The translations under genes were made by a program, and so were the position numbers. A DNA stretch of 64,000 bases from a virus: the IMG/VR virus record IMGVR_UViG_3300005080_000005; one strand, written 5' to 3'. The number at the start of each line of letters is the position of its first letter. Positions within the stretch are counted from its first letter, which is position 1. Under the pieces are notes generated by a model. That model saw only the letters and a list, made by a program, of their open reading frames with translations, had not been told where the DNA came from and made no database searches. This document shows positions 1-40,935 of this stretch, one piece after another.

Positions 1-305
1 TTGTTGAACCCCTCGTACTGTTCTGTAAAGAGATGTTAGAGAAGTATGAAAATGACTGACAGAAATAATAAATACACAGTTTATGATTATGTCGGTAAAA
101 CCTTATAAATGGATAACAATTATATTGACGACTATAACATAGGCCAAGATGAGGTACAATGAGCGAAGAAGTAATTGAGAGTGTGACAGAAAAGAAGAGA
201 GCAAAACGACAAAAACCAGAAGACTTTATAGGTTAGAAAAGTGAGGATGGAAGATTAGAAGTTATAGGCATACATGGAAAACAAGGGAATAGTACAGCAT
301 TTAAA

Positions 306-1202
306 GTGACTTGTACAGAGTGTTCTAAAGATAAAGAGTTATTTCCAGATGGTTATTTTGTTAGCACAAAAGGACGTTTAAAGGCAGGACAGAAGCCTTG
401 TGGTTGTGCGTTTAATCCAAAATGGGAAGGTTGTCAGTACTTGATTTTAGCTAGTAGGGTAGGAGAAAAGAAAGGTTTTATTGTTCATGGTTTTGTTGAA
501 GAATTTAAAAATCAAAAGACAAAATTAAACCTTGAGTGTTTAAAAGATGGGTACAAATGGACTGCAAGTATTACTAAGGTTATTAACAACGGTAGTGGTT
601 GTCCTAAATGTGGTATTGAACAAAAGAAAACACCAGAACCTGTTGCATTACAAAAATGTATTGACATCTGTAGAGAAATGGACTATGATGTTGTTGGTTT
701 TGTTGGTGGTTATAGAACTGCCCGCAAAACTATATTTGAGTATATTTGCAAAATACATGGAAAACAAAATGTTTATTATAACGACTTTGTAAACCACGAG
801 GCACGTTGTAGTGGTTGTTGGAAAGATAGACAAAAAGAGCTAGGGAGTCTTTATGGATATTATCCTGAAAGAAAAGATGAACAAGATTTTCTTTATGTTC
901 TAAATTTCAACAATAAGTTTATCAAGGTTGGAAGATCTTTCGATGTAAATGAAAGGATTAGAAATTTGAGGAAACCTTCAGAATCTGGAATCAAAAAGAT
1001 TTATAAACTAAGAATCTTTACAGCAACCCATCAAGAAATTTATGATTATGAACAAGAGTTACACACTGAACTACGTTCTCGAAACTTTCAACACTATGTT
1101 GATTGGAGTACTGAGTGTTTCGAGAATGATTCTTTGTTTATTCTGAATAAACTACTTGACAGCAGATTAGTTACAGGGAATTTCGAAGAAATTTCTTATT
1201 GA
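306..1202 (+). CDS. Zn-ribbon repeats + T5orf172 (GIY-YIG-like) domain protein, putative homing endonuclease, paralog 1 (N-terminally interrupted)
   Basis: Paralogous to 17900-18898 and 29548-30550 (same CxxC/CGC triple-repeat N-half and FLYVLNFNGKFIKVGRS T5orf172-like C-half). The reading frame runs back to ATG 159 but holds an in-frame TAG at 234-236 where paralog 2 has TGG (Trp). Confidence 0.6.
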   Translation: MTCTECSKDKELFPDGYFVSTKGRLKAGQKPCGCAFNPKWEGCQYLILASRVGEKKGFIVHGFVEEFKNQKTKLNLECLKDGYKWTASITKVINNGSGCPKCGIEQKKTPEPVALQKCIDICREMDYDVVGFVGGYRTARKTIFEYICKIHGKQNVYYNDFVNHEARCSGCWKDRQKELGSLYGYYPERKDEQDFLYVLNFNNKFIKVGRSFDVNERIRNLRKPSESGIKKIYKLRIFTATHQEIYDYEQELHTELRSRNFQHYVDWSTECFENDSLFILNKLLDSRLVTGNFEEISY

Positions 1203-2246: not shown

Positions 2247-2334
2247 TTGAAACGAGTTGCCCAATTTGTGGGTGAATCAAAGATTCACGGCATAACCGCA
2301 AAAAACAAGGTTAACGAAAGAGGGGTTGACTGAG

Positions 2335-2487: not shown

Positions 2488-2848
2488 TCTGGATATGAAT
2501 AACGCTACTTTTGCACAGCGTCAGGAATATGCATCCAGCTTAAAAGATTACAAGATCTTGGCTAATTTTGACGGACTACTAGTTGCAATCGATAAAAATC
2601 ACCCTGTTAACCTGTATGTAAGCGATCTACCAAACGGCAGGCGGACGGGCATATCAGTCACAGGCAAGGCATATGATTTTGATGGTTTTAAAGGGATTAG
2701 GGCGATTCACCTAGATACACTCAGGTCAAGGTTGCATGATGTCTGTCCGTCGTGGTATGAGCGCCAGCTAGACAAAGAAGGCAAGGGCTCAATTAAGGAA
2801 GTTTTAAAATTTATAAAAGATAATCACCCGATGAATAAGGGCTCTTGA
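2462..2848 (+). CDS. hypothetical protein
   Basis: ORF track 2411-2848; internal ATG 2462 preceded by G-rich SD. Confidence 0.5.
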   Translation: MGGLNMNSNLDMNNATFAQRQEYASSLKDYKILANFDGLLVAIDKNHPVNLYVSDLPNGRRTGISVTGKAYDFDGFKGIRAIHLDTLRSRLHDVCPSWYERQLDKEGKGSIKEVLKFIKDNHPMNKGS

Positions 2849-2849
2849 T

Positions 2850-3038
2850 ATGCAATCTATTACAGTTCTGGAGTTGTTGCTTAAGGTTCACGACTGGCAA
2901 GGCGGAACAATCGGGCAAGCCTTTAGGGAGTTGAAACAAGAGCACAAGCAAATGATAAAAGATCTTGCATTTTCTGGTAATGCTGTTTATACTGTTAAAA
3001 CTGAATCGGCTTTTATAGTGAGTTGCTGGAGTTTATAA
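2850..3038 (+). CDS. hypothetical protein
   Basis: ORF, tightly packed with neighbours. Confidence 0.45.
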   Translation: MQSITVLELLLKVHDWQGGTIGQAFRELKQEHKQMIKDLAFSGNAVYTVKTESAFIVSCWSL

Positions 3039-3039
3039 A

Positions 3040-3240
3040 ATGAAAAAGTTTGCGAAAGTAGCAGGCCAATTTGTAACAGATGGGAATTTCAATAAAATTA
3101 AACTCACAAAAAGCCAAGCCCTGTCTATCGCAAAAAGGCAAACTAAACGCCTAGGCTTACAAGGTTGTAAAATGCAGTATCATATTAACGAAAACGATCA
3201 ATTCTATTCTGTAATTATTCACACTGGTGAAATAAAATGA
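3040..3240 (+). CDS. hypothetical protein
   Basis: ORF, 1-nt spacing to previous gene, ATGA overlap with next. Confidence 0.5.
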   Translation: MKKFAKVAGQFVTDGNFNKIKLTKSQALSIAKRQTKRLGLQGCKMQYHINENDQFYSVIIHTGEIK

Positions 3241-3425
3241 ATCCAATTAAAAATATTGAAACTGAAAACTTTTGTCAGTTGGTTGCTAATGAATATCAAG
3301 TTAACCCGTTGAAAGCTAATCAAATTTTTGCTGATTTTGTCAATGAAAAGAAGCTAGTTAAATGGGCTTGGCTTGCAATGAAAGACCGTGTACAATACCT
3401 TATCAAGCAAAACAAAGGCGATTGA
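3237..3425 (+). CDS. hypothetical protein
   Basis: ORF overlapping previous stop (ATGA). Confidence 0.45.
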   Translation: MNPIKNIETENFCQLVANEYQVNPLKANQIFADFVNEKKLVKWAWLAMKDRVQYLIKQNKGD

Positions 3426-3604
3426 TTATGAAAACTTTCTTATTCCATGTTGAATTTTGCGAACATGAAAAAAGCTGATTACGAAAAATGTTTGGAAGTT
3501 TAACAAAGAACCCGACCCGTACCCACTGGGCAAAGAAAACGTTTGACGATTTTGTTAAAAAACATGCTTTGCAACCATAACCACATCACTCTGGAAAACA
3601 TCAC

Positions 3605-3808
3605 ATGCGCCAAGTCACAAACCAAACCTTTCAAAGCAACTATAACTCCGGCTATGAAGAGAAAATGAAGGAGATCCGCGAAACCGGCTTCAATGCAGCA
3701 AGAGATAGTTTTAATAAAAAGTATCCTATCTGTGTCCCCATCCCCACGATGGATCGCTATTACACATCATGCGGTGAAGTTGACGCGCTCATGGATTTTA
3801 TCAACTGA
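3605..3808 (+). CDS. hypothetical protein
   Basis: ORF. Confidence 0.4.
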   Translation: MRQVTNQTFQSNYNSGYEEKMKEIRETGFNAARDSFNKKYPICVPIPTMDRYYTSCGEVDALMDFIN

Positions 3809-3929
3809 TTTTATTCGAAAAAAGGGGCCGAAAGTTATCTATAGTGCCGTAAAGTGTGTATTTGGCGTAAAAAGGTAAAAGAACATCTGAGAAAAGGTGA
3901 TCATTTCATTATGACATAATCCGACAATA

Positions 3930-3957
3930 GCCAGCCTAACAAGCTGGCTTTATTTTC
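3930..3957 (+). terminator. rho-independent terminator
   Basis: GCCAGC ctaacaa GCTGGC followed by TTTATTTT. Confidence 0.6.
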
Positions 3958-4143
3958 ATTTGATATTAAATTTACTCTGGACGTGCTACCGGCGATCAAC
4001 CTTCGATCTTTTGCAAGTATCTTAGCCATATTTAAAGACGATGGAAGTCTGTTTTCTAGTTTGTAAGTGTATTATAAACCCTGACAAAAGACAAAGCAAG
4101 CATTTTACATAAAAATAAATCAGAATATTTTTAGAAAAATATC

Positions 4144-4172
4144 TTGCACAATGATCGGCCTTGCATTATAGT
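4144..4172 (+). promoter_or_regulatory. sigma70-like promoter
   Basis: TTGCAC - 17 nt - TATAGT, 38 nt upstream of ATG 4210. Confidence 0.5.
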
Positions 4173-4209
4173 CATAAACAGATAAACAACATTAACCAAG
4201 GGATCAACC

Positions 4210-4434
4210 ATGAATAACAAAGATTTTCAAATTATCCAGACAAGTAAAAAAGGTGTTAGCATCTTTTGGTGGGTCTTTTGGCTCATTGTTTTCTGGCCTT
4301 TTCTTGCTTTTGTTGCCATAGTTCACTTGGGAAGTGAAACGATCTATCATGTGCAATACAGGAACAGCCAAGGGAAAATAGTTGTGGACAAGATGACAGA
4401 AAAAGAATATACTCGTTTTGTAAGTATGATGTAG
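4210..4434 (+). CDS. small membrane protein
   Basis: ORF with hydrophobic stretch VSIFWWVFWLIVFWPFLAFVAIVHL. Confidence 0.5.
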   Translation: MNNKDFQIIQTSKKGVSIFWWVFWLIVFWPFLAFVAIVHLGSETIYHVQYRNSQGKIVVDKMTEKEYTRFVSMM

Positions 4435-4488
4435 TTAAATCTAAATTGATTATTTTACCTATCTTATTGAAATTAAAAGGATTCTATC

Positions 4489-4674
4489 ATGGCGATCAAA
4501 CAATCTTATAATTGTTCGGCTTTTGTTCAAACTAAAAGCAATCCTGACGCTTTTATAAATCGAGAGGTTATTGCTGAAAATTTTGAACAAGCACAACAAA
4601 AGTTTAACGTTATCTTGCAAAATTATTCCTTTGTAAGTATTGACTTTGATACGATTAGCGTTAAACTTAAGTAA
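4489..4674 (+). CDS. hypothetical protein
   Basis: ORF with AAAGGA SD. Confidence 0.4.
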   Translation: MAIKQSYNCSAFVQTKSNPDAFINREVIAENFEQAQQKFNVILQNYSFVSIDFDTISVKLK

Positions 4675-4703
4675 GTTAAACAAGCATTAAAGGGGTGATT
4701 ATA

Positions 4704-4925
4704 ATGTGTCAAATATTTTTCAAAAACAGGGAAGCTGCCCGTTATGTTAAATCCGGCAAAATTCAAGACAATGGCAGGGACTCTATAAAACGTTGGAGCC
4801 GTCTTGTAGAAGCAAAACCGACACAAAAAGATCTATTGCCATTGACATGCACAAAAGATTATCGTTATCCTGAAAAGGCTAAGATTGTTCAAGTTTTGAA
4901 GGTTAAGAAAAATAAACTGAAATAA
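4704..4925 (+). CDS. hypothetical protein
   Basis: ORF track 4695 (GTG); ATG at 4704 after AAAGGGGTGA. Confidence 0.4.
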   Translation: MCQIFFKNREAARYVKSGKIQDNGRDSIKRWSRLVEAKPTQKDLLPLTCTKDYRYPEKAKIVQVLKVKKNKLK

Positions 4926-4936
4926 GGAATATTAAA

Positions 4937-5185
4937 ATGCTTACGAAAGAACAAACAAATATGATTTTGGACATCCTTGATTCATCTCATGTTAAACATA
5001 TTACCATGAATGACAGAACCTCGGAATATTGTTATATGGTATCTACATGTGATAGTGATGTAATATGCTTTCATAAGGGAAAATTGGAACCTTGGTATTT
5101 TGACAAGATTGTTGTGTGTGATAGTACCATGACAAAAGAGCCGATTTATAAAGATTGGTATATGACTGTTGCATATCATAGTTAA
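4937..5185 (+). CDS. hypothetical protein
   Basis: ORF with AAGGAA SD. Confidence 0.45.
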   Translation: MLTKEQTNMILDILDSSHVKHITMNDRTSEYCYMVSTCDSDVICFHKGKLEPWYFDKIVVCDSTMTKEPIYKDWYMTVAYHS

Positions 5186-5418
5186 TTTTAGTCTGGATTC
5201 TACCTTTAAACTCTGGTAGAATCCTTTCTAAAGTTAAATTATGATAACAGGAGACAGATAAATCAGTTGACTTACTAGAAATGATAAAGATCACAAATGA
5301 AATACTGGGCAGGATTAAACAAGATCAATAAATAAAAGCTTGCACCAATAGAAAAGTTAGTTTATAATGTTTTCACCAAGTCGGGAATGGTTCCCGATAA
5401 AAACAAAGAGAAAATGTC

Positions 5419-5862
5419 ATGTCAAACAAAATCGAAACCCTGAAATCTGAAATCGCCGATCTGGTTGAACAGCTTAATGCAAAGAAGCAAGAGCGCGCTT
5501 TGAATCTCGCATCTCTGGAAGTTAAGAAAGAGGAGCTAGATAATTATGAAATTGATCCAGATTCTGTGGAAGATAGTTATAAAGATGCGCTAGATGAAAG
5601 TTATGAGATGCCCAACGGATGGTCTTACTCTGATGTCCTAGAACGGATGGATCCGACTATGTATCGCTGTGGATTGAATGATTATGCTGACAGTTTTGAC
5701 AAAGAGGAGTTTGAAGATTACAAAGAATTGCAAGAGGAATTTGAAGAACTTGATAACATTAATGATCAGTTGAATGATGAGATCTTTGATTTGGAACAAG
5801 AGATCGAAGAAAAGCAAGAAGTTCTGGATGATTTGATTGTTGAAGCTGATATGCTTTATTGA
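5419..5862 (+). CDS. highly acidic coiled-coil protein (candidate DNA mimic / host-takeover protein)
   Basis: 147 aa, very D/E rich (EELDNYEIDPDSVEDSYKDALDESYE...); AAAGAGAAAATG start. Confidence 0.55.
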   Translation: MSNKIETLKSEIADLVEQLNAKKQERALNLASLEVKKEELDNYEIDPDSVEDSYKDALDESYEMPNGWSYSDVLERMDPTMYRCGLNDYADSFDKEEFEDYKELQEEFEELDNINDQLNDEIFDLEQEIEEKQEVLDDLIVEADMLY

Positions 5863-5885
5863 TACGAAATAGATTAAGATAGTTG

Positions 5886-5923
5886 TTGATCTTCTGATTT
5901 GATGCGCTTATAATGAGCGCATC
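5886..5923 (+). promoter_or_regulatory. sigma70-like promoter with -10 inside an 8-bp perfect palindrome (operator-like)
   Basis: TTGATC - 17 nt - TATAAT; GATGCGCT tataatg AGCGCATC hairpin/palindrome spans the -10. Confidence 0.45.
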
Positions 5924-5956
5924 TTGTAGAGGAAAACACCAAGCAAAGGTAAAGTT

Positions 5957-6184
5957 ATGAAAAACTGGAATAAAACAAAAGAAGATATTAAAAACGAGTA
6001 TAATCTGAGCGTAAAACTGATGGCGACCCGCTTTTATTATGACAGACGGGATGACACTAATACCCTGTTGAATGATCTTTATTATAGAATTGAGAAAGAG
6101 GGTGGCAATCTGGATTTTGTCTCGGATGTCTCAGATTATATTGACAACTTGAAAGATTATGATAACAGACCATTTTATGATTAA
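5957..6184 (+). CDS. hypothetical protein
   Basis: ORF with AAAGGTAAAG SD. Confidence 0.45.
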   Translation: MKNWNKTKEDIKNEYNLSVKLMATRFYYDRRDDTNTLLNDLYYRIEKEGGNLDFVSDVSDYIDNLKDYDNRPFYD

Positions 6185-6288
6185 AGAAAACAAAAATAAA
6201 CCTTGCAATATAAAATCAGTTTGTTAGAATAGATTAAGAGGTTAGGGAATAATCCCTAACTTAAGACCAAACCAAAGGAATAAACACC

Positions 6289-6567
6289 ATGAAAAACCAA
6301 ATCAAAGCCGTTGTTAATGCAATCCTATCCCATAATGCTGGCGAGTATGTTTACTCTGATGTTAAACAATTGTTTACCGATGTTGCTAACAACTTTGATA
6401 ATGATTTTAATGTTGATTTTGATGGCCGTGAATATCGAGTTATCTCTAATGATGATATTCTTGATATCATGAAAGATGAGTTGTCAAGTGATACATATGT
6501 TTTGGGCTGTGGTTCTGACTGGTTTATGTCTGATGTGACAGGGATTCCCGTTGATGCAAGATGTTGA
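6289..6567 (+). CDS. acidic hypothetical protein
   Basis: ORF, D-rich; AAAGGAATAA SD. Confidence 0.5.
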   Translation: MKNQIKAVVNAILSHNAGEYVYSDVKQLFTDVANNFDNDFNVDFDGREYRVISNDDILDIMKDELSSDTYVLGCGSDWFMSDVTGIPVDARC

Positions 6568-6686
6568 CAGCTTTTGCTGAGGGTATTATTTCACACGATG
6601 GCGCAGGGCATCACTTTAGTGGTTATGATTTTAGTGAAACGGAAGCGGGGGATTATACTGTCTTTTGTGTCAACTAAGGGCTAGTG

Positions 6687-7025
6687 ATGGAGCATGACTC
6701 TTTAGACTGGGCGATTATAGTTATCTTGCTGTTGATTATGATCGCCCCCGTCGCCGCTGGTTTTCTGTTTATAATCTGGTTACTCAAAAAGGTTTATCAA
6801 ACTATGAATACAAACAACGAGCGCTATTGTTATCTAGCATACAAACACAACCAAACTGGACAAGTTTTTGATAGTGGTATTCAGCTTGAAACTGAAATTG
6901 ATCAAACAGAAAATAATGTCATTAGTTCCGGACATTGCATCTTGATCCGCTATAATACAAAAGAAGTCGAAAAGCTGAAAGGATGGATTCAAGCCTTTAG
7001 AATTGAAAACAATGTAATTTGTTGA
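6687..7025 (+). CDS. membrane protein
   Basis: N-terminal TM (WAIIVILLLIMIAPVAAGFLFIIWLL); ORF track starts at GTG 6684. Confidence 0.5.
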   Translation: MEHDSLDWAIIVILLLIMIAPVAAGFLFIIWLLKKVYQTMNTNNERYCYLAYKHNQTGQVFDSGIQLETEIDQTENNVISSGHCILIRYNTKEVEKLKGWIQAFRIENNVIC

Positions 7026-17899: not shown

Positions 17900-18898
17900 T
17901 CATTGTTTTATTTCTTCTAGACCACAACTATCCAGAAATTTATTGAGAACGAACAGTGAATCATTTTCAAAACACTCTGTTGACCAATCTACATAATGTT
18001 GGAAGTTTCTTTCTCGTAACTCGTTATGTAGTTCTTGTTCAAAATCATAAATCTCTTGATGTGTTGCTGTGAATATTCTGAGTTTGTGAATCTTTTTGAT
18101 TTTAGATATAGACTTTAAAGCATCAACTCTTTTATCAACAAGAAAAGACCTTCCAACTTTAATGAATTTACCATTGAAGTTCAAGATGTACAAGAAATCA
18201 GTTTCATCTTTTCTTTCGGGATAGTATCCATTACCATTTCCATCTTCCCTTAATCTTCTAATGGTTTCATCTTTAGCACAACCCCGACAACGTGTTCCTT
18301 TGTTTACAAAATTACCATATCTAACATTCTGTTTTCCATGAATTTTGCAGATGTACTCAAAACGAGAAGTGTTGTTTTTATATCCACCAACAAAACCAAC
18401 AACATCATAGCTCATTTCTTTACAAATATCAATACATTTTTGCAATGCTTCTTGTTCTGTTGGCCTATATACACCAGCACACTTTGAACAACCTTTGCCA
18501 CTATTAATAATATCATTAATACTTGCAGTCCACTTATGCCCATCTTTCAAACATTCAAGGTTTAGTTTGGTGTTTTGATTTTTAAATCCTTCAACAAAAC
18601 CATGAACAATAAACCTGTCTTTTGATGCTCTACGGGCTAATATTAAATATTGAAAGTCCCTCCATCTTACATTTTTCCCACAACCACAAGGTTTGATTTC
18701 TTTAACCAAACTACTTTTGACACTAACAAAATATCCATCATGGAATAATTCAGGATCTTTGGAACATTCCGTACAGGTAACTTTAAAAGTGGTATGCTTC
18801 GATTTCTCAATAATACCAATAACTTCTAGTTTTCCATCTTTACTTTTCCAACCTATGAAATCTTCAGCTTTTTGTTGTTTCTTTTTATTTTCAGTCAT
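17900..18898 (-). CDS. Zn-ribbon repeats + T5orf172 (GIY-YIG-like) putative homing endonuclease, paralog 2 (intact)
   Basis: 332 aa; three CxxC...CGC/CxKC zinc-ribbon-like repeats then FLYILNFNGKFIKVGRSF T5orf172/MUG113-like motif. Confidence 0.7.
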   Translation of the reverse strand: MTENKKKQQKAEDFIGWKSKDGKLEVIGIIEKSKHTTFKVTCTECSKDPELFHDGYFVSVKSSLVKEIKPCGCGKNVRWRDFQYLILARRASKDRFIVHGFVEGFKNQNTKLNLECLKDGHKWTASINDIINSGKGCSKCAGVYRPTEQEALQKCIDICKEMSYDVVGFVGGYKNNTSRFEYICKIHGKQNVRYGNFVNKGTRCRGCAKDETIRRLREDGNGNGYYPERKDETDFLYILNFNGKFIKVGRSFLVDKRVDALKSISKIKKIHKLRIFTATHQEIYDFEQELHNELRERNFQHYVDWSTECFENDSLFVLNKFLDSCGLEEIKQ

Positions 18899-28435: not shown

Positions 28436-29521
28436 TTAAAACTCTAATTCATCATCCCCAAGGTCATCTTTAGTTGCATTCAAAACATAATTGACAATAG
28501 TAGCTTCTTGTGCTGCTACTTGATGGGAGTCAATGTCAATCCAGTCATTCAACCAAGGAATTGGGTGGGATTCGGGAACTACATTGTCATTATGAACATT
28601 CAACACTTTGTACAATGGGGTTGCAGACCAAACAACCCACTCATCCAATAGTTGCTTGTTCAAGCCCAGAATACTACGCCCTTCTGAGAACAAGTATTCG
28701 TTCCAGTTTAGCTCTCGCTGTACAACCTTGTCAAGATATTCTTTTGTCCAAGGTTTAATATCTTTAAATGTTTGCTTCCATTCAGGGTCGTTTTGTAGGG
28801 TCTCAATAACAATTTTATCAAGTTGGGTATGATATTGTTCATCGATCATAATTTTCTGAACTAATTTGGCAACACCGATAAACAAATCTTGTTGTGCTAG
28901 TGCAAATGTGCAAGCAAACGATGCCATGAAACTAATACCTTCAAGAGCATACAGGGCTACTAATGTTTTTGCAATAGTTTCTTTGACGATTGGGTCATTT
29001 TTATCTACAAGACCAAGATTATACTTAGCACCAAGTTGTTCAAGTTCTTTGAACACGATACCAAAATCATAGCCACGTTCAGTAACTTCATTTCTCTCTA
29101 CTTCAGCAAACAATACTTCTGGATTCTTGAAACACTGTCGACCAATTTCGGAATATGTTAAACTGTGAAGCACTTCATTTTGCGATACATAAGAAGCTGC
29201 TGCCCAATATTCACTATTTGATACAAATGGTGCAAGAAGCGGTGCAATAGAACGAGAAGCAATGCTATCAAGCTCCCACTGATAGGCCAGAGTTTTAACC
29301 ATTACTTCGTATTGATTCTTTGGGCAATTCTCGAAATCGAAGCGGGATTGTTGAAGGTCAACCTCATCTTCACTCCAGTCAACAGACTTCAGTTTCTTGT
29401 AAAGTTTAAAGATCTGTGGGTATGTTGTGTTGATGCTATCGTGAAGTGCTGGTTGCTGCCCAAGGAATAGAGGGTAGTGCCCTTCGTGTCGTTGAGTATT
29501 TTCATAATTAAAAACTGCCAT
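28436..29521 (-). CDS. nrdB: ribonucleotide reductase small subunit
   Basis: 361 aa; ferritin-like di-iron RNR beta architecture. Confidence 0.85.
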   Translation of the reverse strand: MAVFNYENTQRHEGHYPLFLGQQPALHDSINTTYPQIFKLYKKLKSVDWSEDEVDLQQSRFDFENCPKNQYEVMVKTLAYQWELDSIASRSIAPLLAPFVSNSEYWAAASYVSQNEVLHSLTYSEIGRQCFKNPEVLFAEVERNEVTERGYDFGIVFKELEQLGAKYNLGLVDKNDPIVKETIAKTLVALYALEGISFMASFACTFALAQQDLFIGVAKLVQKIMIDEQYHTQLDKIVIETLQNDPEWKQTFKDIKPWTKEYLDKVVQRELNWNEYLFSEGRSILGLNKQLLDEWVVWSATPLYKVLNVHNDNVVPESHPIPWLNDWIDIDSHQVAAQEATIVNYVLNATKDDLGDDELEF

Positions 29522-29547
29522 TTATTTCCTCCTTTATTCAATTTATG

Positions 29548-30550
29548 TTATTTTACTTCTTCTAAATCACAGTTGTCAAGAAGTTTGTTTAGAGTGTATT
29601 GACAGTCATTATCAAAACACTCTGTACTCCAATCTACATAATGTTGGAAATTTCTTTCTCGTAGTTCAGTATGTAGCTCTTGTTCGTAGTCATAAATCTC
29701 TTGATGTGTTGCTGTAAAAGGTCCTCAATTTATAGATCTTTTTAATTTTAGATAAAGACCTTAACTTCTTAATCCTATCGTCAACAATAAAAGATCTTCC
29801 AACTTTGATGAATTTACCATTGAAGTCTAAGACATAAAGAAAATCAATTTCATCTTTTCTTTCGGGATAGTATCCGTTGCCGTTTCCGTTATCTCTTAGT
29901 AATTCAACTTGCCTATCTTTCCAACAACCACCACAACGTGTCCCATTGTTTACAAAATTGTGATAGCTGACACCCTGTTTTCCGTGAATCTTACAATTGT
30001 ATTCAAAATGAGAACGGTTATTTTTATATCCACCAACAAAGCCAACAGCATCGTAATCCATTTCTTTGCAGATATCAATACATTTTTGCAGGGCTTCTTG
30101 TTCTGTTGGTCTGGCATTTCCAGAACACTTAGGACAACATCTGCCGTTATTGATTACATTATCAATACTTGCAGTCCACTTATAACTGTCTTTTAAACAT
30201 TCTAGGTTTAGTTTTGTATATGCCCCATGAAACTCTTCTGCAAAACCATGAACAACAAATCCTTTCTCTTCTCCTGCTCTACGAGCAAGAATCAGATATT
30301 GCCAATCTTCCCATTCGTACTTAGAACAACCGCAGGGTTTCCGCCCATTCTTCAGGTTACTTTTTGTACTAACAAAATAACCATCTGGAAACAGTTCAGG
30401 ATCTTTAGAACATTCAGTACAAGTTACTTTAAATAATGAAATTCCCCATTTATCCTTACCTGCAATTCCTACAACCCTTAATCTGCCATTATTAAACGTC
30501 TCACCTATAAAATCTTCAGCTTTTTGTTGTTTCTTCTTATTTTCAGCCAC
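29548..30550 (-). pseudogene. Zn-ribbon + T5orf172 homing-endonuclease paralog 3, frameshifted near 29705-29715
   Basis: ORF track 29690-30550 ends ...KLRTFYSNTSRDL. The conserved C-terminus (FTATHQEIYDYEQELHTELRERNFQHYVDWSTECF...) continues in another frame to TAA at 29548. The region has one extra base relative to paralog 2. Confidence 0.6.
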
Positions 30551-30619
30551 TTAATTCTACCTCCTTTTACTATGAACTTGCATTATACTACCTTAATTTG
30601 AAAATGTCAATACAAATCC

Positions 30620-30652
30620 ATAATAAAAGAGGCTCATTATAAGCCTCCTCTT
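30620..30652 (-). terminator. terminator-like hairpin (minus strand)
   Basis: GAGGCT tataatg AGCCTC + TTTTATTAT on the minus strand. Confidence 0.45.
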
Positions 30653-30661
30653 GTTTACAAC

Positions 30662-32920
30662 TTACAAACTGCAACCACCTGACGCACAACCAGATTCTTG
30701 CGAAGTCAGTTGCTCAACTTCATCGGATTTGGATTTTGTATTGCAGTAATAATGAGTCTTGAGTCCCATCTTACACATATATAGCAAGTTCGTCAAGTCT
30801 TCCTTCGTACCGATCTTACCATCTTGATATTTAGAGGTATCGAAATAAAAGTCAGCACTAATAGCTTGCCCACAGAACTTCTGAACAATTGCATACATGT
30901 CTACCAAGTCCTTAAATGGGACATCCCAACACTTCTCGTAACTGTATCGAGTAATCAAATTATCATAATCTGGTACAAACACTGGAATTTTGTTTATATC
31001 CGAAGATTTAATAATCAGTTCACTACGAATTGGATAAAGACCGTTAGTTGTGTTTGATGCTAGAGAACTACTTTCTCCGGGCATGTGTGCCTCAAGGACA
31101 CTATTGCGCAACCCGCCTTGTTCAATAATTTCTTGTCGTAACTGTTCCCAGTCAAATACCAACGAACTATCAACAACATCATCTACATTTTTATTGTATG
31201 TGTCAATAGGCAACCAACCTTTAGGATATTTAGTTTTACCAATCCATTCTGCATTACCCTTTTCTTTTGCAAGACGAAGAGAAGCTTTGTGCATATAGTA
31301 GCTGTGCATTTCTGCTAGTTCGTGAATAAGACGTTTACCTTTATTGCTTGTATAACCTGCATTCTGTGATGCAAGATAGTTTGCTAGGTTAACAATACCA
31401 ACACCAATACTTCTGCGAGCTTTTGCTGTTACTTCCATCTGGGGGAATGGGTATTCCATCAAGTCAATAGTGTTGTCGATTAGTAAGGTTGTATAATAAG
31501 CAACATCTTCGTACTCTTCTTGTGTAACACGTCCTGCTACAATTGCACCAATAAAACACAATGCTACTTCTCCTGCATCACCATCTGTTCCATACAAATC
31601 TACAATACTCTTAAATCCTTTTGTAGGTAGCGTGATTTCTTGGCATAAATTTGAGCTGTAGATTGGCTCTTTAAATGGAGTATGTCGATTAATCTCGTCA
31701 ATAAATGTCTTGTATGTTCGACCAGATTCACGCCAGTTCTTTTGAATATCAATTGCCAATTCACGAGCATTGACATACTTCTTTTCTTTAATATCTGATT
31801 TGTCGTATTTGTCATACAGTTCAACAAAACCTTCATAATCTGAACTATAAAACTTATCATACAAATCTTGAGCGTAGTATGGACTAATTAACATCCACTG
31901 CTCGTTCTTAGCAACTTTCTGAATAAACAGTTTGTTCATGCTGTTACTATAATCCAACCCACGAATCTGTTTTTGTGTCGGTGTAGTTGGATGTTTTAGA
32001 CGAATCAAATCTTCAATTTCAGGATCTAGAATATTAATGTGCATTGTTGCACTACCGCCACGTACTGCTTGCTTTGTAGATTTGACAGCACTTTCGTAGT
32101 ACCGAAGGTAAGGTAGTTTACCATAGTGTACAATGTCGCCACCACGAACAGGGTCTTTTACTGAACGAGTATGCATGTAACCACCAATCCCTGCTGATGC
32201 GCAAGTCATCATATAGGCAATGTGGCTACCTACTTCAATACTCTCTGCTGTATCGTGCGTAGTAAACAAACAGCAACTTGCATAACCTTTAAACTTAGTT
32301 CTCATACCAGAAAGAGTTGGTGTTGGAACATTAATCTTCAAATCTGACAGATAGGTGTACAGTTTGATTACATCTTCAACTCTCCGCTCTTGTGGTTGAT
32401 TCTGCATAGCCGCCAGAGCAATACCCACATACATAAACTGAGGTGATTCAAACAGTTGTCCAGTATGCTTGTTTTTAAGCATGTATTTATCACACATTTG
32501 ACGAAGGCTTGAGTATTGGTATCCGAAATCTTTATTGTGGATAACAAAAGAATCAATTTCGTCAAGTTCTTCTTCAACGTACTCCATGTCAATCCACTTT
32601 TCTGATTCTACCATTTTTGTATAGAACTCAAAAAGAGAGGGTGGTTCTACAAAATCACCAAACACTTCTTTATAGATATCCCCAACAAGGAGTCGTGCTG
32701 CAACATCTGCATGTTGGTATGTTGCCTTTTCAAGACAGGTGTCAATAAGCGCCTTGTGGATATCTTTGGTAGAGCACATATCGGACAGTTTCTTAGTTGC
32801 ACTCATTACAATTTCTGACCAAGATACTTTAGATTCACTGGCCCACTCAGCCCACTTATTCAGTTTGTTTGGGTCGAACTCAACAACTTCACCATTACGT
32901 TTGATTACACTTTTAATCAA
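30662..32920 (-). CDS. nrdA: ribonucleotide reductase large subunit
   Basis: 752 aa; N-terminal ATP-cone, catalytic NLCQEITLP motif, C-terminal CxxC tail. Confidence 0.9.
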   Translation of the reverse strand: MIKSVIKRNGEVVEFDPNKLNKWAEWASESKVSWSEIVMSATKKLSDMCSTKDIHKALIDTCLEKATYQHADVAARLLVGDIYKEVFGDFVEPPSLFEFYTKMVESEKWIDMEYVEEELDEIDSFVIHNKDFGYQYSSLRQMCDKYMLKNKHTGQLFESPQFMYVGIALAAMQNQPQERRVEDVIKLYTYLSDLKINVPTPTLSGMRTKFKGYASCCLFTTHDTAESIEVGSHIAYMMTCASAGIGGYMHTRSVKDPVRGGDIVHYGKLPYLRYYESAVKSTKQAVRGGSATMHINILDPEIEDLIRLKHPTTPTQKQIRGLDYSNSMNKLFIQKVAKNEQWMLISPYYAQDLYDKFYSSDYEGFVELYDKYDKSDIKEKKYVNARELAIDIQKNWRESGRTYKTFIDEINRHTPFKEPIYSSNLCQEITLPTKGFKSIVDLYGTDGDAGEVALCFIGAIVAGRVTQEEYEDVAYYTTLLIDNTIDLMEYPFPQMEVTAKARRSIGVGIVNLANYLASQNAGYTSNKGKRLIHELAEMHSYYMHKASLRLAKEKGNAEWIGKTKYPKGWLPIDTYNKNVDDVVDSSLVFDWEQLRQEIIEQGGLRNSVLEAHMPGESSSLASNTTNGLYPIRSELIIKSSDINKIPVFVPDYDNLITRYSYEKCWDVPFKDLVDMYAIVQKFCGQAISADFYFDTSKYQDGKIGTKEDLTNLLYMCKMGLKTHYYCNTKSKSDEVEQLTSQESGCASGGCSL

Positions 32921-35531: not shown

Positions 35532-36377
35532 TTACTCGCTAAAAGGGAATACAATCTTTCCTTGGTGCTCGTAACCAGTAAGGGTATAGTAGTCTTTGGC
35601 AACATGATTGTCAATCAAAATGTCCTCGAAAGTTTTAATATTGTCTGTAAATTCAAACTTTGGTTTAATCTTCAATGGTTTACGTGTCAATTGCTGTTCT
35701 TTCAAGATTTCTAACTGATCTTCGTAAATATGAGAATTCACAATATGATGTGTCGCACGACCAAATTTAAAACCTGTTATATGACACATAAGTTTCAATA
35801 AGAACCAGACTTGAATCATGTTAAATGATAAACCTAGTGGAACATCACAACTTCGCTGATAACTTGTTAAATACAGTTTGTCATTAATAATTGTAAAATG
35901 ATGTTGCATCAAACAAGGGCGAAGGCAACCTTTATCGAAATCAGCAGGATTCCAGAACGTGATAATTTCCCCGCGATCATCTTTTCCTGAAATCAAATCA
36001 TCAACAACTTTCTTGATTAAATTAACCCCATTAAAGTCTTTGGCTGTCGCGCCATAGACTCGCCCCATATCGTTTTCACCTTTACGACTAGGATTATCTA
36101 ACCAAGCTTTTGTTTGATTCGCATTAGCATACCAAGTCTTTGTCCCAATACGGTCAAATTCTGAAGCATCTGTATAACCTCTGAGATACCCAATAATCTC
36201 AGCAATTGCACTGTTGACTGCAACTTGTTTTGTTGTCAACACTGGAATATCTTCAGAATAATACATTGTTGTATTTGGAATAGTCAAACAACGTTTTCCA
36301 GTACGTTCATTACATACCCATTCCCCAAATTCGATAATTTGTTCACATAATTTTAGATATTGTTTCTCTGGACTCAC
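35532..36377 (-). CDS. thyA: thymidylate synthase
   Basis: 281 aa; catalytic PCLMQHHF...YQRSCDVPLGLSFN motifs. Confidence 0.9.
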   Translation of the reverse strand: MSPEKQYLKLCEQIIEFGEWVCNERTGKRCLTIPNTTMYYSEDIPVLTTKQVAVNSAIAEIIGYLRGYTDASEFDRIGTKTWYANANQTKAWLDNPSRKGENDMGRVYGATAKDFNGVNLIKKVVDDLISGKDDRGEIITFWNPADFDKGCLRPCLMQHHFTIINDKLYLTSYQRSCDVPLGLSFNMIQVWFLLKLMCHITGFKFGRATHHIVNSHIYEDQLEILKEQQLTRKPLKIKPKFEFTDNIKTFEDILIDNHVAKDYYTLTGYEHQGKIVFPFSE

Positions 36378-36385
36378 CTAACCTC

Positions 36386-36664
36386 CTAACCATGCATTAT
36401 TGGTAGAACATGTTGTTCAGCAACATATACCAAATAGTCGCCTTCGGCGTACTTAACGTAGTTAATAGGTTTTTCACCACCTAACCAACTATTGGTAGCC
36501 TGAAACCAAACACAAATTTCAGCTTCACTCTTGTTGTAACTTTTCATTAAACTAATTACTTCACCAATCTCACCTTTGTCTGGCAAACCTAAATCTGAGA
36601 GTTTTGTTTTTAGATTGTGTTTCTCAGCAAATTCATAAATACTTATAGTTTTAAACTGTTTCAT
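36386..36664 (-). CDS. hypothetical protein
   Basis: ORF. Confidence 0.45.
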   Translation of the reverse strand: MKQFKTISIYEFAEKHNLKTKLSDLGLPDKGEIGEVISLMKSYNKSEAEICVWFQATNSWLGGEKPINYVKYAEGDYLVYVAEQHVLPIMHG

Positions 36665-36906
36665 CTTATCCTTACTCCATCAAGGTATATCTGCACGTTG
36701 TTTATGTCTGACATTGGGATATTATATATTGTTACTAACTCAATATCAAATTGTTTTCTGCATTTGTTATGTTTAATTGTTGTCTCTACCAGCCTATTCC
36801 CTGTTGAATCAATAACAACCAGATACTGTCCTCGTTGTGCGTAGTATTTATTATTTGTCACATGAAATATCTCCTTCATAAACAACCCCGGCATTCCATA
36901 TATCAA
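36661..36906 (-). CDS. hypothetical protein
   Basis: ORF. Confidence 0.4.
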   Translation of the reverse strand: MIYGMPGLFMKEIFHVTNNKYYAQRGQYLVVIDSTGNRLVETTIKHNKCRKQFDIELVTIYNIPMSDINNVQIYLDGVRIR

Positions 36907-37108
36907 GCATGTCTTGCCACTCTATCAAATTACTACCGCCATCATCAAACTCTACGCAAATTTCGTTACCACAATCTTTACATAATACCCAACCACTCTG
37001 ATAACAAACACCTCTTATTTCAAGACAACCTGTAGAATCTGTTTCTAGATTATAACTTCCACATTTTATGCATGGTTTTAGTTTATAAATTTCTGCATCT
37101 TTGCTCAT
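36851..37108 (-). CDS. zinc-ribbon protein
   Basis: CIKCGS...CKDCGNE. Confidence 0.45.
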   Translation of the reverse strand: MSKDAEIYKLKPCIKCGSYNLETDSTGCLEIRGVCYQSGWVLCKDCGNEICVEFDDGGSNLIEWQDMLDIWNAGVVYEGDISCDK

Positions 37109-37680
37109 AAGACTTCTTCAAGGAATTTACCAATACTTTGCCAATTATTGCTGTGAAAGTCAATAGAAACTTCCAGATCTTCACATTGAGTGTATGGTGT
37201 GTTGAATTTAATTTTAATAACTTTATCACCAAAAGAATTTAAGAACAGATTACGGTCATCAATCATTACATCAACATTAACAAAATGTTTCTCTTTTGTT
37301 GCAATAAAACCAAAGGAATCTTTTGGAATATCAAACCACTCTTTTGCTGCAACTACCTTACTCTTGAAGTGGTTCTGCTGGCAGTGGCTAATAAACACAA
37401 TTTTGTGCCCTTGCTTTGCAAGATTATTGATAACTTCAACAGCACTTCTATATGGTTTCAGTTTTTGATACAGTGAAGTATCTTTCCAGAAACTAAAGCT
37501 TTCTGATTCAGTCAAGTCTGGATAATATCTACCAAGATTATAATCAATTTCTTTCATTACTGCAAATTGTTCTTTTGAAATATAATGATACGACATTGCG
37601 TTCAAGTGGTCTATCCAACCTCCTTGTTGAAAGACACAATCAACAACTGTCAAATCAAAATCAATTCCGATTGTGGTCAT
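37105..37680 (-). CDS. HAD-family 5'(3')-deoxyribonucleotidase
   Basis: HAD motif I IGIDFDLTV at N-terminus; size and layout of NT5C-type phage nucleotidases. Confidence 0.55.
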   Translation of the reverse strand: MTTIGIDFDLTVVDCVFQQGGWIDHLNAMSYHYISKEQFAVMKEIDYNLGRYYPDLTESESFSFWKDTSLYQKLKPYRSAVEVINNLAKQGHKIVFISHCQQNHFKSKVVAAKEWFDIPKDSFGFIATKEKHFVNVDVMIDDRNLFLNSFGDKVIKIKFNTPYTQCEDLEVSIDFHSNNWQSIGKFLEEVL

Positions 37681-38372
37681 TAATTTTCACCTTTTTCTTT
37701 AATAATACGTATAACAGTGTAGTATATTCTGCTATCTATTTCATCCATTTCTGGTTTTAATTCTAACGCTAGTTCTAATTTTCTCATAATCCATGCAAGA
37801 TGTGCTTGGTTTTCATCATTAAAGTAACCAAGGTGATCTCTCTTTTTAGTTTTTGGATTACTACATGCACTTTGAAATTTATTAGCTCTCTTGTTCCAAT
37901 ATACACCTATTTTATATTTACCGCGAGATTTATCTCTTCCTAATGTGAATGAATTCAACCATTGTGGAACAAACACACATGTTTCTGGTGAATACTTTTT
38001 ATTACCAAAAATCAATAGATCTTTATCTAGCTGATAACCCTCTTTGTAATTATCAATATACCACACTCTAAAATTAGAAAACGACAACCATTCATCACAA
38101 ACAGTAATATCTTCGTAAGTTGGTTGCACTTTATGTCTGTTGTGACTATATGCTCTGGATAGCATACTCTTCCACTCAGAATACACAGGGCACATATTAT
38201 GCTCTTTCCTTATTCGTACCGCAACAGAGTAATTTGCATCATTTACACCAACACCATGTATTAGTTTTCTAACACCACCCCTATTATCTTTATTATACAG
38301 TGGTAAGTTGTGTTCAAACCAATAGGTTAAGTTAATTTTAGTTATGTTTTTAGGGTAACTTGTCATTATCAT
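37680..38372 (-). CDS. homing endonuclease, NUMOD4/HNH-type, paralog 1
   Basis: HGVGVNDANYSV...YSEWKSMLSRAY...VCDEWLSFSNFRVW...LDKDLL, shared with 39227-39790 and 52056-52643. Confidence 0.6.
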   Translation of the reverse strand: MIMTSYPKNITKINLTYWFEHNLPLYNKDNRGGVRKLIHGVGVNDANYSVAVRIRKEHNMCPVYSEWKSMLSRAYSHNRHKVQPTYEDITVCDEWLSFSNFRVWYIDNYKEGYQLDKDLLIFGNKKYSPETCVFVPQWLNSFTLGRDKSRGKYKIGVYWNKRANKFQSACSNPKTKKRDHLGYFNDENQAHLAWIMRKLELALELKPEMDEIDSRIYYTVIRIIKEKGEN

Positions 38373-38992
38373 TATTCTTCACCTCGGTATTCACGAATTT
38401 TATTTACACTGTAATCAATTTTGTTGAGTTCGTAGTCAAGACTATTACCCTTCTTTCCTGCACCATTCACTGTTCCCCATGCACGAACAAGAGACTTAAA
38501 AGCATTAGAGAAATCAAAATCATTATCGAAAATATCATAAATCAGCATTTCTGTCTTGACATAACCATTTTCTTTAATAAAATCAATTGTTTTCTGGCTA
38601 AGTTGTAGATCGTAGTAACTGGATGATTTGCCATCTGATTCAATCGGTTCTTTATTCTGTTTTTCAGCAGCACTTAATGTTTCCTTGGCCCACTTGTGGC
38701 GTGAATCTCTATCCAAACCTTGAGGCATTCTGTGGTGTTCCTCTTTTGTAAATTCTGATAGCCGTTCTACATCAGAAATTTTTACACTTCTACTGTACAA
38801 CTTACAATACCGCCCATGTACAGCATACACACTTTTTCCGCTGAAAACATCTTTACCATAAAGAAGTTGTACCTCATCTTGTACAACAATATTGTCAACC
38901 TCAAAAATAAATTCCTTATTTTCATTATGAATATTTCTAGCAACCACTATATCACCTGCTTTATATTCCATATTTCCTCCTTTATAAAACAA
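38372..38992 (-). CDS. hypothetical protein
   Basis: ORF 206 aa. Confidence 0.45.
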   Translation of the reverse strand: MFYKGGNMEYKAGDIVVARNIHNENKEFIFEVDNIVVQDEVQLLYGKDVFSGKSVYAVHGRYCKLYSRSVKISDVERLSEFTKEEHHRMPQGLDRDSRHKWAKETLSAAEKQNKEPIESDGKSSSYYDLQLSQKTIDFIKENGYVKTEMLIYDIFDNDFDFSNAFKSLVRAWGTVNGAGKKGNSLDYELNKIDYSVNKIREYRGEE

Positions 38993-39226
38993 AAGCCACC
39001 GATTATAATCAAGCGGCTTAAAATAATTATACTTAAGTTATTCTACAATTGCAAGTTGAATTGTCTTAAACTCTTTAACTGAACTCTTACCAATATTATC
39101 CTCTGGTTCATGCCACATAACTACTTGTGCAGGTATAGAACTAAAACCAAGAACACCAGAATATTCAGTTGCTGCTGTATCTACTCCAAAATTATACTAC
39201 TTTATAAATATAATCTACTAATAAAT

Positions 39227-39790: not shown

Positions 39791-39793
39791 TTA

Positions 39794-40753: not shown

Positions 40754-40935
40754 TTATTCTCCTTAAACTTGAAATGTATGCCCAACTTTAATTGCTTTAG
40801 CAGTTTCTTCGGTTGAACACATAATATTGGTTTCAGATACCTGTCCGTAACAATTATACTCAACATCTACCCAATACTTATTAAATAGTAGATATGGTTC
40901 GCTTAGAACTTTTGTAACAACTGCATCAACTAGGT

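What the first reader, a model, noticed from the sequence alone, without database searches (positions are those of the whole stretch)
29548..30550. Frameshifted T5orf172 homing-endonuclease paralog inserted between nrdB and nrdA
Paralog 3 sits precisely between the two aerobic RNR subunit genes, the same location where phage T4 carries the mobE homing endonuclease gene. Relative to paralog 2, the segment at about 29705-29715 has one extra base (gctgtaaaaggtcctcaattt versus gctgtgaatattctgagttt). This shifts the conserved C-terminal 40 residues into another frame. The region looks like a decaying selfish element, or the site of a -1/+1 programmed frameshift. In this window, paralog 1 lies beside an apparent terminal cluster, paralog 2 beside the HslV-like gene and paralog 3 within the RNR operon.
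Basis: partly seen in the sequence, partly recalled or inferred. Interest (0 to 1): 0.55.

Follow-up and report, generated by a model that had tools for sequence, protein, structure and literature searches.

The report
Broken homing-endonuclease gene between nrdA and nrdB
A selfish "homing endonuclease" gene of a known phage family sits between the two ribonucleotide-reductase genes of an Aeromonas phage. In this genome one extra base has cut off its DNA-cutting domain, so it is an ordinary decaying mobile gene, not a programmed frameshift.

Summary
On the minus strand the order is nrdA (30662-32920), a 1-kb gene (29548-30550), then nrdB (28436-29521). The gene has one base more than every homolog compared: a T4 run (AAAA at 29716-29719 on the plus strand) where the others have three bases. 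This gives a 286-aa ORF and puts the last 55 codons out of frame.

The window is a Plateaulakevirus-like Aeromonas phage from a JGI metagenome. In relatives the same gap is empty (TS9, phiA009), holds an intact 332-335-aa homolog (2L372D, 4L372XY) or holds an unrelated HNH gene (PAc). Phages 2L372D and 4L372XY are identical in nrdA and nrdB except for a 1,445-nt tract centred on the gene, which looks like a homing footprint.

Near-identical metagenomic genomes carry the T4 allele, the unshifted T3 allele, or an independent 2-nt insertion. So the frameshift is very probably a real, recent inactivating mutation. No programmed-frameshift signals were found.

T5orf172/CapR homing-endonuclease genes next to RNR genes, often frameshifted, are already described (Barth et al. 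2023). This is a new member of a known kind.

The parts
30662..32920 (-). nrdA (class Ia RNR large subunit, 752 aa, intron-less here). Its last ~170 nt belong to the hypervariable, exchange-prone flank.
   Evidence: ORF. Pfam ATP-cone, Ribonuc_red_lgN and lgC on the identical product. Divergence rises toward the 3' end.
30629..30647 (.). GC-rich hairpin (GAGGCT-N7-AGCCTC) just after the nrdA stop, followed on the minus strand by TTTTATTAT. It looks like a terminator and forms the 5' edge of the cassette.
   Evidence: Equivalent hairpins occur in the cassettes of 2L372D and 4L372XY.
30582..30610 (-). Promoter-like site of the cassette itself: TTGACA-17-TATAAT, 12 of 12 consensus positions.
   Evidence: Sites with >=11/12 are enriched in this window (21 against 4.2+-1.9 in shuffles; 17 on the minus strand). 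Conserved at 11/12 in 2L372D and 4L372XY.
29690..30550 (-). 5' reading frame of the homing-endonuclease gene (paralog 3). GTG start; 286 aa ending ...KLRTF/YSNTSRDL*. It encodes the three CapR modules and the first half of the T5orf172 domain.
   Evidence: This exact product is P0001, found on 3 JGI contigs.
29888..30517 (-). Three CapR-homology zinc-finger modules (about residues 12-221), the predicted DNA-binding part. Module 1 carries CxxC...CxC at C44, C47, C73 and C75.
   Evidence: Pfam PF21817, E 8e-47, 3 stretches. AlphaFold pLDDT is about 80-95 over residues 11-210. The CapR cysteines C43/46/72/74 were mutated together in the CapR binding-site gel-shift assay (PMC8096241).
29716..29719 (-). 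The frameshift: a T4 run on the coding strand (AAAA on plus) where all homologs and near-identical alleles have one base fewer.
29548..29715 (-). Out-of-frame 3' segment: 55 codons plus TAA, encoding TATHQEIYDYEQELH...WSTECF...EEVK. This is the second half of the T5orf172/GIY-YIG domain, with invariant H282, Y286, E289, H293, W307, E310 and F312.
29550..29579 (-). Second promoter-like site (TTGACA-18-TAAAAT, 11/12), embedded in the last 30 nt of the gene and facing nrdB.
   Evidence: Identical motif in the same-site genes of 2L372D and 4L372XY. The full motif is missing from par1 (which keeps the TTGACA hexamer only) and par2. T4 has an nrdB middle promoter inside the 3' end of mobE (PMC2790892).
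28436..29521 (-). nrdB (class Ia RNR small subunit, 361 aa). Its first ~135 nt belong to the exchange-prone flank.
29387..30826 (.). Window equivalent of the 1,445-nt replacement tract that separates the otherwise identical 2L372D and 4L372XY. It covers the last ~170 nt of nrdA, the whole cassette and the first ~135 nt of nrdB. The homing site is inferred to lie in the corresponding ~355 bp of the empty allele.
   Evidence: The coordinate transfer to the window is my own arithmetic.
17900..18898 (-). Paralog 2: intact 332-aa family member. Its site is empty in phiA009, phiA047, PAc and PhAER-4.
159..1202 (+). Paralog 1: family member with an in-frame TAG at 234..236, where par2 has TGG.

Best explanation
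The 1-kb insert is a free-standing homing-endonuclease gene (HEG) cassette of the CapR-zinc-finger + T5orf172 family. T5orf172 belongs to the GIY-YIG nuclease superfamily.

The cassette consists of a hairpin after nrdA, its own consensus sigma-70-type promoter, a ribosome-binding site, the ORF, and an outward promoter-like site at its 3' end that faces nrdB.

Inferred mechanism:
1. The intact protein binds a long target through its three zinc-finger modules.
2. It cuts an insert-free nrdA-nrdB allele in a co-infecting phage.
3. Recombinational repair copies the cassette, together with some flanking nrdA 3' and nrdB 5' sequence, into the cut genome.

In this genome a real 1-nt insertion (T3 to T4) truncates the nuclease domain before its invariant His and Glu residues. 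This copy can therefore no longer cut. It is a recently disabled copy, at the degeneration stage of the HEG life cycle.

Shown here: the gene's anatomy, family and fold; the site polymorphism; the gene-conversion tract; the allele series.
Inferred: cleavage activity, the target location, and the function of either promoter-like site.
For: Identity:
- Three CapR modules (E 8e-47) plus T5orf172. The repaired copy scores 17.6 bits and par2 scores 20.6 bits, against a cut-off of 20. All 62 aligned homologs match T5orf172 at E<=0.01.
- PHROG 681 'endonuclease', E 1e-76.
- A T5orf172 protein (ICP1 Odn) is a proven nuclease, and its E180A mutant is inactive (PMC8263062).

Mobility:
- The gap is empty in TS9 and phiA009 (53-nt spacer). 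It holds intact 332- and 335-aa homologs in 2L372D and 4L372XY, and an HNH gene in PAc.
- 2L372D and 4L372XY differ at 369 positions inside a 1,445-nt tract centred on the cassette, and at only 2 positions in the remaining ~3 kb of nrdA and nrdB.
- The family has up to 7 or more copies per genome, including fragments.
- The par2 site is also polymorphic between phages.

The frameshift is real and recent:
- The T4 allele occurs on 3 JGI contigs from at least 2 samples. One of them (L009) differs from the window at 19 other positions.
- The indel is linked to a SNP at 29912: G with T4 in the JGI contigs, A with T3 in the ENA and Logan contigs.
- L010 is in frame across the site. L007 has T3 but carries an independent AG insertion at about 29861.
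- Of 6 mutational events between L006 and L007 over 8.5 kb, 4 fall within the 1-kb gene (Fisher p=0.0024).

Loss of function: the frame breaks after residue 278, so invariant H282, Y286, E289, H293, W307 and E310 are lost.
Against: - No reads were available, so a systematic homopolymer miscall shared by the JGI assemblies cannot be ruled out completely.
- Homing has not been shown experimentally for any CapR/T5orf172 gene (Barth et al. 2023), and I could not test cleavage.
- The same-site genes of the window, 2L372D and 4L372XY are only 73-77% identical to each other. That is no closer than to copies at other sites, so a shared target specificity is not demonstrated.
- The repaired copy by itself scores below Pfam's T5orf172 cut-off (17.6 against 20 bits).
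Confidence: 0.75

Rival explanations
1. Sequencing or assembly artefact. The true genome has TTT, the gene is an intact 333-aa HEG, and the extra T is a homopolymer miscall.
For: The lesion is a single base in a homopolymer. Near-identical contigs from other projects (L007, L010) have TTT. All T4 contigs come from one data source, JGI. The out-of-frame segment shows no further decay and is 80-86% identical to the paralogs at protein level.
Against: A run of 4 is short for homopolymer error. The allele recurs on 3 contigs from at least 2 samples, including a distinguishable strain (L009, 19 other differences). It is linked to a nearby SNP. An independent 2-nt frameshift in L007 and the excess of changes within the gene (p=0.0024) show that this gene really is accumulating lesions in this lineage.
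Confidence: 0.13
2. Programmed +1 ribosomal frameshift at CC-UUU-U. Full-length nuclease would be made at a low, regulated level by tRNA-Phe slipping from UUU to the overlapping UUU.
For: UUUU allows perfect re-pairing of tRNA-Phe in the +1 frame. Low expression would suit a potentially toxic endonuclease.
Against: The extra base is absent from near-identical alleles and from all 62 aligned family members. The following 0-frame codon, UAC, is common (15.6 per 1000), and neither a stop nor a rare codon occupies the A site. The downstream 100 nt fold no better than shuffles (z=+0.64). The gene contains 23 other homopolymer runs of 4 or more, so this one is not special.
Confidence: 0.02
3. Selected truncation. 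The 286-aa product, with three intact CapR zinc-finger modules expressed from a consensus promoter, would be kept as a nuclease-dead DNA-binding protein. It could act as a regulator, or shield a target site, in the way the phage satellite PLE uses CapR.
For: Two independent frameshifts, in the window and in L007, both spare all three CapR modules and remove only nuclease residues. PLE CapR is a precedent for a stand-alone DNA-binding derivative of this HEG family (PMC8096241). In 30721-30820 the window's nrdA resembles the empty-site phages (88-91%) more than the phages with intact inserts (73-79%). Self-cleavage pressure is therefore conceivable.
Against: Two events in the last 30% of a gene are expected by chance about 9% of the time (my own estimate). 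The only substitution in the DNA-binding part between the alleles is synonymous, which is too little to measure selection. Persistence is explained more simply by a recent origin plus the nrdB-facing promoter in the 3' end. No binding site is known.
Confidence: 0.1

Closest known systems
Putative T5orf172 HEGs with CapR-type zinc fingers of Vibrio phage ICP1 and other phages (Netter et al. 2021, PMC8096241; Barth, Dunham & Seed 2023, PMC10448857)
   Same: The domain architecture is the same: repeated CapR, DUF723 or DUF4379 zinc-finger modules followed by a C-terminal T5orf172 domain. Both are multi-copy within a genome and vary between related phages. Both are frequently frameshifted. In that survey 33% of gene neighbourhoods contained ribonucleotide reductase genes, and the genes sat at boundaries of genetic exchange.
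   Different: The host lineage differs (Plateaulakevirus-like Aeromonas phages). The family here is very uniform, at about 70-77% protein identity over 436 clusters. A clean 1,445-nt replacement tract and an empty / T5orf172 / HNH allelic series can be seen at a single site. Sequence identity to the ICP1 genes was not measured here.
Phage T4 mobE (Wilson & Edgell 2009, PMC2790892)
   Same: [quoted passage not shown] In T4 a promoter for nrdB lies in the 3' end of the HEG, which selects against its deletion. Flanking sequence is co-converted.
   Different: MobE is an HNH nicking enzyme with an N-terminal nuclease domain. It has no promoter of its own and is co-transcribed with nrdA. The gene here has a GIY-YIG-like T5orf172 domain at its C-terminus and its own consensus promoter-like site. 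No HNH domain was detected. The shared position is convergent, not homologous.
ICP1 Odn (Gp88), the origin-directed nuclease (Barth et al. 2021, PMC8263062)
   Same: Both have a C-terminal T5orf172 nuclease domain. For Odn, in-vitro cleavage and dependence on a catalytic Glu (E180A) are demonstrated.
   Different: Odn has a RepA_N DNA-binding domain and serves as an anti-satellite weapon, not as a HEG. Here the binding modules are of CapR type.
PLE CapR (Netter et al. 2021)
   Same: The zinc-finger domain is homologous. The CxxC...CxC cysteines lie at almost the same positions: C44, C47, C73, C75 here and C43, C46, C72, C74 in CapR. CapR is a nuclease-less derivative of this HEG family.
   Different: CapR is a satellite-encoded repressor of the ICP1 capsid operon with a known operator. 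The truncated product here arose by a recent frameshift, and nothing shows that it has a function.
T4 Seg proteins and I-TevI (GIY-YIG homing endonucleases)
   Same: Both belong to the GIY-YIG nuclease superfamily and have a modular 'beads on a string' design. Both are free-standing genes between essential genes.

Membership tests
Pfam T5orf172 (PF10544) | Significant match to the family HMM | tested here: met
   The repaired par3 scores E 0.0056 and 17.6 bits, just below the 20-bit cut-off. par2 (20.6 bits) and the TS9 copy (22.3 bits) pass. All 62 aligned homologs match at E<=0.01, best 1.9e-6. The test is met at family level and is borderline for this copy alone.
GIY-YIG nuclease superfamily | Beta-beta-alpha-beta-alpha core fold | tested here: met
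GIY-YIG nuclease superfamily | Complete catalytic residue set (Tyr, Arg, Glu) encoded in one reading frame | tested here: not met
   Y239, R252/R259, E289 and E310 are invariant across the family. In the window copy the frame breaks after residue 278, so E289 and E310 are not part of the 286-aa product. Which Glu is catalytic was not determined.
CapR homology domain (PF21817) DNA-binding zinc finger | HMM match and the CxxC...CxC cysteine motif | tested here: met
   E 8e-47, 3 stretches. C44, C47, C73 and C75 are invariant. The modules are modelled with confidence.
Free-standing homing endonuclease gene (functional class) | Presence/absence polymorphism at a fixed site between otherwise collinear genomes | tested here: met
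   The site is empty in TS9 and phiA009, occupied in the window, 2L372D, 2L372X, 4L372D and 4L372XY, and holds an HNH gene in PAc.
Free-standing homing endonuclease gene (functional class) | Co-conversion of flanking sequence with the gene | tested here: met
   2L372D against 4L372XY: 369 differences within nt 2095-3539 (nrdA 3' end, cassette, nrdB 5' end), and 2 differences elsewhere across nrdA and nrdB.
Free-standing homing endonuclease gene (functional class) | Site-specific cleavage of the insert-free allele, and super-Mendelian inheritance in mixed infection | not testable with these tools
   This needs biochemistry and phage crosses. It has not been shown for any CapR/T5orf172 HEG according to Barth et al. 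2023.
Programmed ribosomal frameshift site | Shift site conserved among homologs, with a slow A-site codon or a stimulatory structure | tested here: not met
   The extra base is absent from all homologs and from near-identical alleles. The next codon, UAC, is common. The downstream fold has z=+0.64.
T4 Mob (HNH) endonucleases | HNH nuclease motif | tested here: not met
   No HNH family appears among the Pfam or PHROG hits for this gene. Only the insertion site is shared with mobE.

The most novel reading that the evidence does not exclude
The loss of the nuclease could be selected and not neutral. Two independent frameshifts in this phage lineage each keep the three CapR zinc-finger modules under a consensus promoter. 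They would yield a nuclease-dead DNA-binding protein that regulates or shields the nrdA-nrdB region. That would be domestication caught in progress, parallel to the origin of the satellite repressor CapR. The nrdB-facing promoter in the gene's 3' end would meanwhile lock the remnant in place.
Probability: 0.1. Interest if true: 0.55.

Novelty: new member of a known kind. Interest (0 to 1): 0.27.

Why it matters
No new kind of element is involved. CapR/T5orf172 HEGs near RNR genes, often frameshifted, were catalogued in 2023, and T4 mobE set the precedent for the nrdA-nrdB position.

The value of this locus is as a test system.
- Cultured Aeromonas phages supply an allelic series at one site: empty, two diverged intact T5orf172 cassettes, and an HNH cassette. 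The metagenomic lineage of the window adds two independently frameshifted copies.
- A sharply bounded 1,445-nt replacement tract narrows the presumed target to about 355 bp.
- Homing by this endonuclease class has not been demonstrated experimentally. This locus would allow a direct test by phage crosses and by in-vitro cleavage.

The locus also shows convergence with T4: a terminator at the insert and an nrdB-facing promoter inside the 3' end of the HEG.

Tried and rejected
- Exact-pattern scan of IMG/VR for the frameshift context with three or four T: no hit.
- Scan for the 3' junction in IMG/VR: only the four GenBank phages already in hand.
- The same junction in JGI metagenome contigs: no hit, not even the source contig. 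That collection evidently does not hold it.
- Full-length AlphaFold model: the C-terminal domain had pLDDT below 50, and Foldseek against PDB gave nothing significant. The domain modelled on its own worked.
- Profile search of PDB sequences: 0 hits.
- Rfam at gathering thresholds on three loci: nothing. The nrdA intron of relatives appeared only at the E-value threshold.
- Phase variation by slipped-strand mispairing: rejected, because a 3-4 base run is too short (established knowledge).
- An internal restart expressing the C-terminal fragment: rejected, because the 58-residue out-of-frame segment contains no Met.
- The idea that same-site genes form a clade with shared specificity: not supported. 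The best match changes along the gene, and the closest overall relatives (78% nt) sit at other sites.

Full report
**1. What is in the sequence.**

On the minus strand the ORF list and the raw sequence give this order:
- nrdA at 30662..32920 (752 aa)
- a 286-aa ORF at 29690..30550 (GTG start, AAGGAGG upstream)
- nrdB at 28436..29521
- a glutaredoxin-like gene
- nrdD

A different frame between 29724 and 29551 encodes 58 residues. They match the C-termini of two other genes in the window, with E 1e-29 and 1e-26. par2 (17900..18898, minus strand) is intact at 332 aa. par1 (about 159..1202, plus strand) has an in-frame TAG at 234..236 where par2 has TGG.

DNA alignments place a single extra base in par3 relative to par1, par2 and the same-site genes of two related phages. 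par3 reads AGG ACC TTTT ACA, against ATC/ATA TTT/TTC ACA in the others. On the plus strand this is the AAAA run at 29716..29719. Removing one T restores a 333-aa protein.

**2. What the gene encodes.**

The repaired protein has three CapR-homology zinc-finger stretches (PF21817, E 8e-47). It also has a weak treble-clef match and a C-terminal T5orf172 match (E 0.0056, 17.6 bits, just under the 20-bit cut-off). par2 and a TS9 copy pass that cut-off. All 62 aligned homologs match both CapR and T5orf172. PHROG 681 'endonuclease' matches at E 1e-76.

In the 62-sequence alignment these residues are invariant: Y239, G251, R252, R259, H282, Y286, E289, H293, W307, E310 and F312. The frame breaks after residue 278, inside the third strand. 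The 286-aa product keeps the DNA-binding modules and the first half of the nuclease fold, but loses every candidate catalytic Glu or His.

A T5orf172 domain has been shown to be a nuclease that needs its conserved Glu. This was done for ICP1 Odn, where the E180A mutant is inactive (PMC8263062).

**3. Where the window comes from, and what relatives carry at this site.**

The region matches only Aeromonas phages of the genus Plateaulakevirus, at 86-91% identity. The window is identical to JGI metagenome contig 3300005066|Ga0068536_1000013, which is 118 kb long.

The state of the nrdA-nrdB gap differs among relatives:
- TS9 and phiA009: empty. The genes are 53 nt apart, with a hairpin between them.
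- 2L372D, 2L372X and 4L372D: an intact 332-aa homolog.
- 4L372XY: an intact 335-aa homolog.
- PAc: an unrelated 217-aa HNH endonuclease gene (phrog_953, E 6e-80).

The insert replaces the whole spacer and has no target-site duplication. That fits entry by recombination and not by transposition.

**4. Evidence for mobility.**

2L372D and 4L372XY come from the same lake. Across nrdA nt 1-2094 and nrdB from about nt 135 onward they differ at 2 positions in total. Inside a 1,445-nt tract they differ at 369 positions. The tract covers the last ~170 nt of nrdA, the whole cassette and the first ~135 nt of nrdB.

This is the footprint expected when a HEG and its flanks are copied in by double-strand-break repair. 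It narrows the likely target to about 355 bp of the empty allele.

More generally, the nrdA 3' end is the most variable part of the gene in all comparisons.

The family is amplified, with at least 7 copies in 4L372D and 4-6 in its relatives, including fragments. It comprises 436 clusters of mostly 325-350-aa proteins in public data. The par2 site is also empty in several relatives.

The closest relatives of par3 (76-78%) sit at other genomic sites, and the best match changes along the gene. The family is mosaic and uses many sites. A shared specificity of the three same-site genes is not shown.

**5. Is the frameshift real?**

Independent assemblies that encode the identical NrdB protein give an allele series:
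- The T4 frameshift is on three JGI contigs from at least two samples. One of them (L009) differs from the window at 19 other positions, so it is a different strain.
- L010 (Logan ERR13714764; a partial gene of 176 aa) has TTT and reads through to the normal stop.
- L007 (ENA ERZ1305919) also has TTT. It carries an independent AG insertion at about 29861 that truncates the protein just before the nuclease domain, plus a missense change.

The indel is linked to a SNP at 29912: G with T4, and A with T3. Between L006 and L007, 4 of the 6 mutational events in 8.5 kb fall inside the 1-kb gene (Fisher p=0.0024).

Together with the nonsense codon in par1, this is the pattern of HEG degeneration after fixation. 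It is the same pattern described for ICP1 T5orf172 genes (PMC10448857). Without reads, a residual chance of about 13% remains that the T4 is a shared miscall.

**6. Programmed frameshifting is rejected.**

- The extra base is not conserved in any homolog or near-identical allele.
- The 0-frame codon after UUU is the common UAC.
- The downstream RNA folds no better than shuffled sequence (z=+0.64).
- The gene has 23 other homopolymer runs of 4 or more.

**7. Cassette anatomy and the T4 parallel.**

Each same-site cassette (window, 2L372D, 4L372XY) has three regulatory-looking elements:
- a hairpin right after nrdA
- an 11-12/12 match to TTGACA-17-TATAAT upstream of the gene
- an 11/12 match (TTGACA-18-TAAAAT) inside the last 30 nt of the ORF, facing nrdB

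The empty site has only a hairpin. Near-consensus sites of this kind are enriched in the window and biased by strand: 21 against 4.2+-1.9 in shuffles, with 17 on the coding strand. They are therefore plausible phage promoters, although they are untested.

T4 mobE occupies the same intergenic position. It is associated with a terminator and carries the nrdB middle promoter in its 3' end, which is thought to select against its deletion (PMC2790892). mobE differs in being an HNH enzyme with no promoter of its own. The resemblance is convergent, not homologous.

**8. Verdict.**

This is a recently disabled member of a known class, the CapR/T5orf172 free-standing HEGs, at a classic HEG hot spot. 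It is an ordinary element in kind. The locus is nevertheless a good natural system for the first experimental test of homing by this endonuclease class.

The most novel reading still open is that the truncated zinc-finger protein is retained for a DNA-binding role. Two independent truncations spare the CapR modules, but two events are far too few to show selection.

Noticed in passing
window 159..1202 (+), stop codon at 234..236: Paralog 1 of the same HEG family has an in-frame TAG where paralog 2 has TGG (FIG*KS against FIGWKS). So two of the three family copies in this window are disrupted. A GTG at 306 could restart a 298-aa product.
   Followed up: partly
L005 (phiA009) 3693..3906 (-), also in L004 (PAc); insertion point equals window ~31644: nrdA of phiA009 and PAc is split by a 232-nt ORF-less insert. 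It matches the group I intron model RF00028 over its full length (35 bits, E 2.5e-7, below the gathering score of 50). GenBank annotates the two halves as separate nrdA genes. The window's nrdA has no intron.
   Followed up: partly
L004 (PAc) 2637..3290 (-): In phage PAc the same nrdA-nrdB gap holds an unrelated 217-aa HNH endonuclease gene (phrog_953, E 6e-80; no Pfam hit). Two HEG families compete for one site.
   Followed up: partly
L014 (ENA ERZ28645480 scaffold_1215) 3001..7023: In a more distant relative, nrdA and nrdB are adjacent. A family member sits upstream of the glutaredoxin gene instead, and a NUMOD4 + HNH_3 gene splits nrdD into two ORFs. The whole nrd cluster is a hot spot for mobile endonucleases.
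   Followed up: no
window, whole; e.g. 28432, 20716, 51227 (-): Near-consensus sigma-70-type sites (>=11/12) number 21, against 4.2+-1.9 in shuffles. 17 of them are on the minus (main coding) strand, and four are perfect 12/12 matches. This suggests the phage relies heavily on host-type promoters in this region.
   Followed up: partly
L045 (2L372D 63463-69098) and L047 (4L372XY 36146-41478): Relatives carry fragments of the family. One covers only residues 1-209 (zinc-finger part), and another only residues 225-332 (T5orf172 domain alone). These are further examples of decay or domain shuffling.
   Followed up: no
L006/L007 position ~8519 onward (window ~25000 and below): The two near-identical metagenomic genomes (6 mutational events in 8.5 kb) abruptly become about 20-25% divergent from locus position 8519. 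This is a mosaic recombination boundary downstream of the Peptidase_M15_4 gene.
   Followed up: no
L052 and L008 (Logan ERR4027562): This assembly breaks inside the HEG. One contig ends 186 nt into the gene, and another starts 108 nt before nrdB. Repeat copies or allele polymorphism may be confusing the assembler.
   Followed up: no
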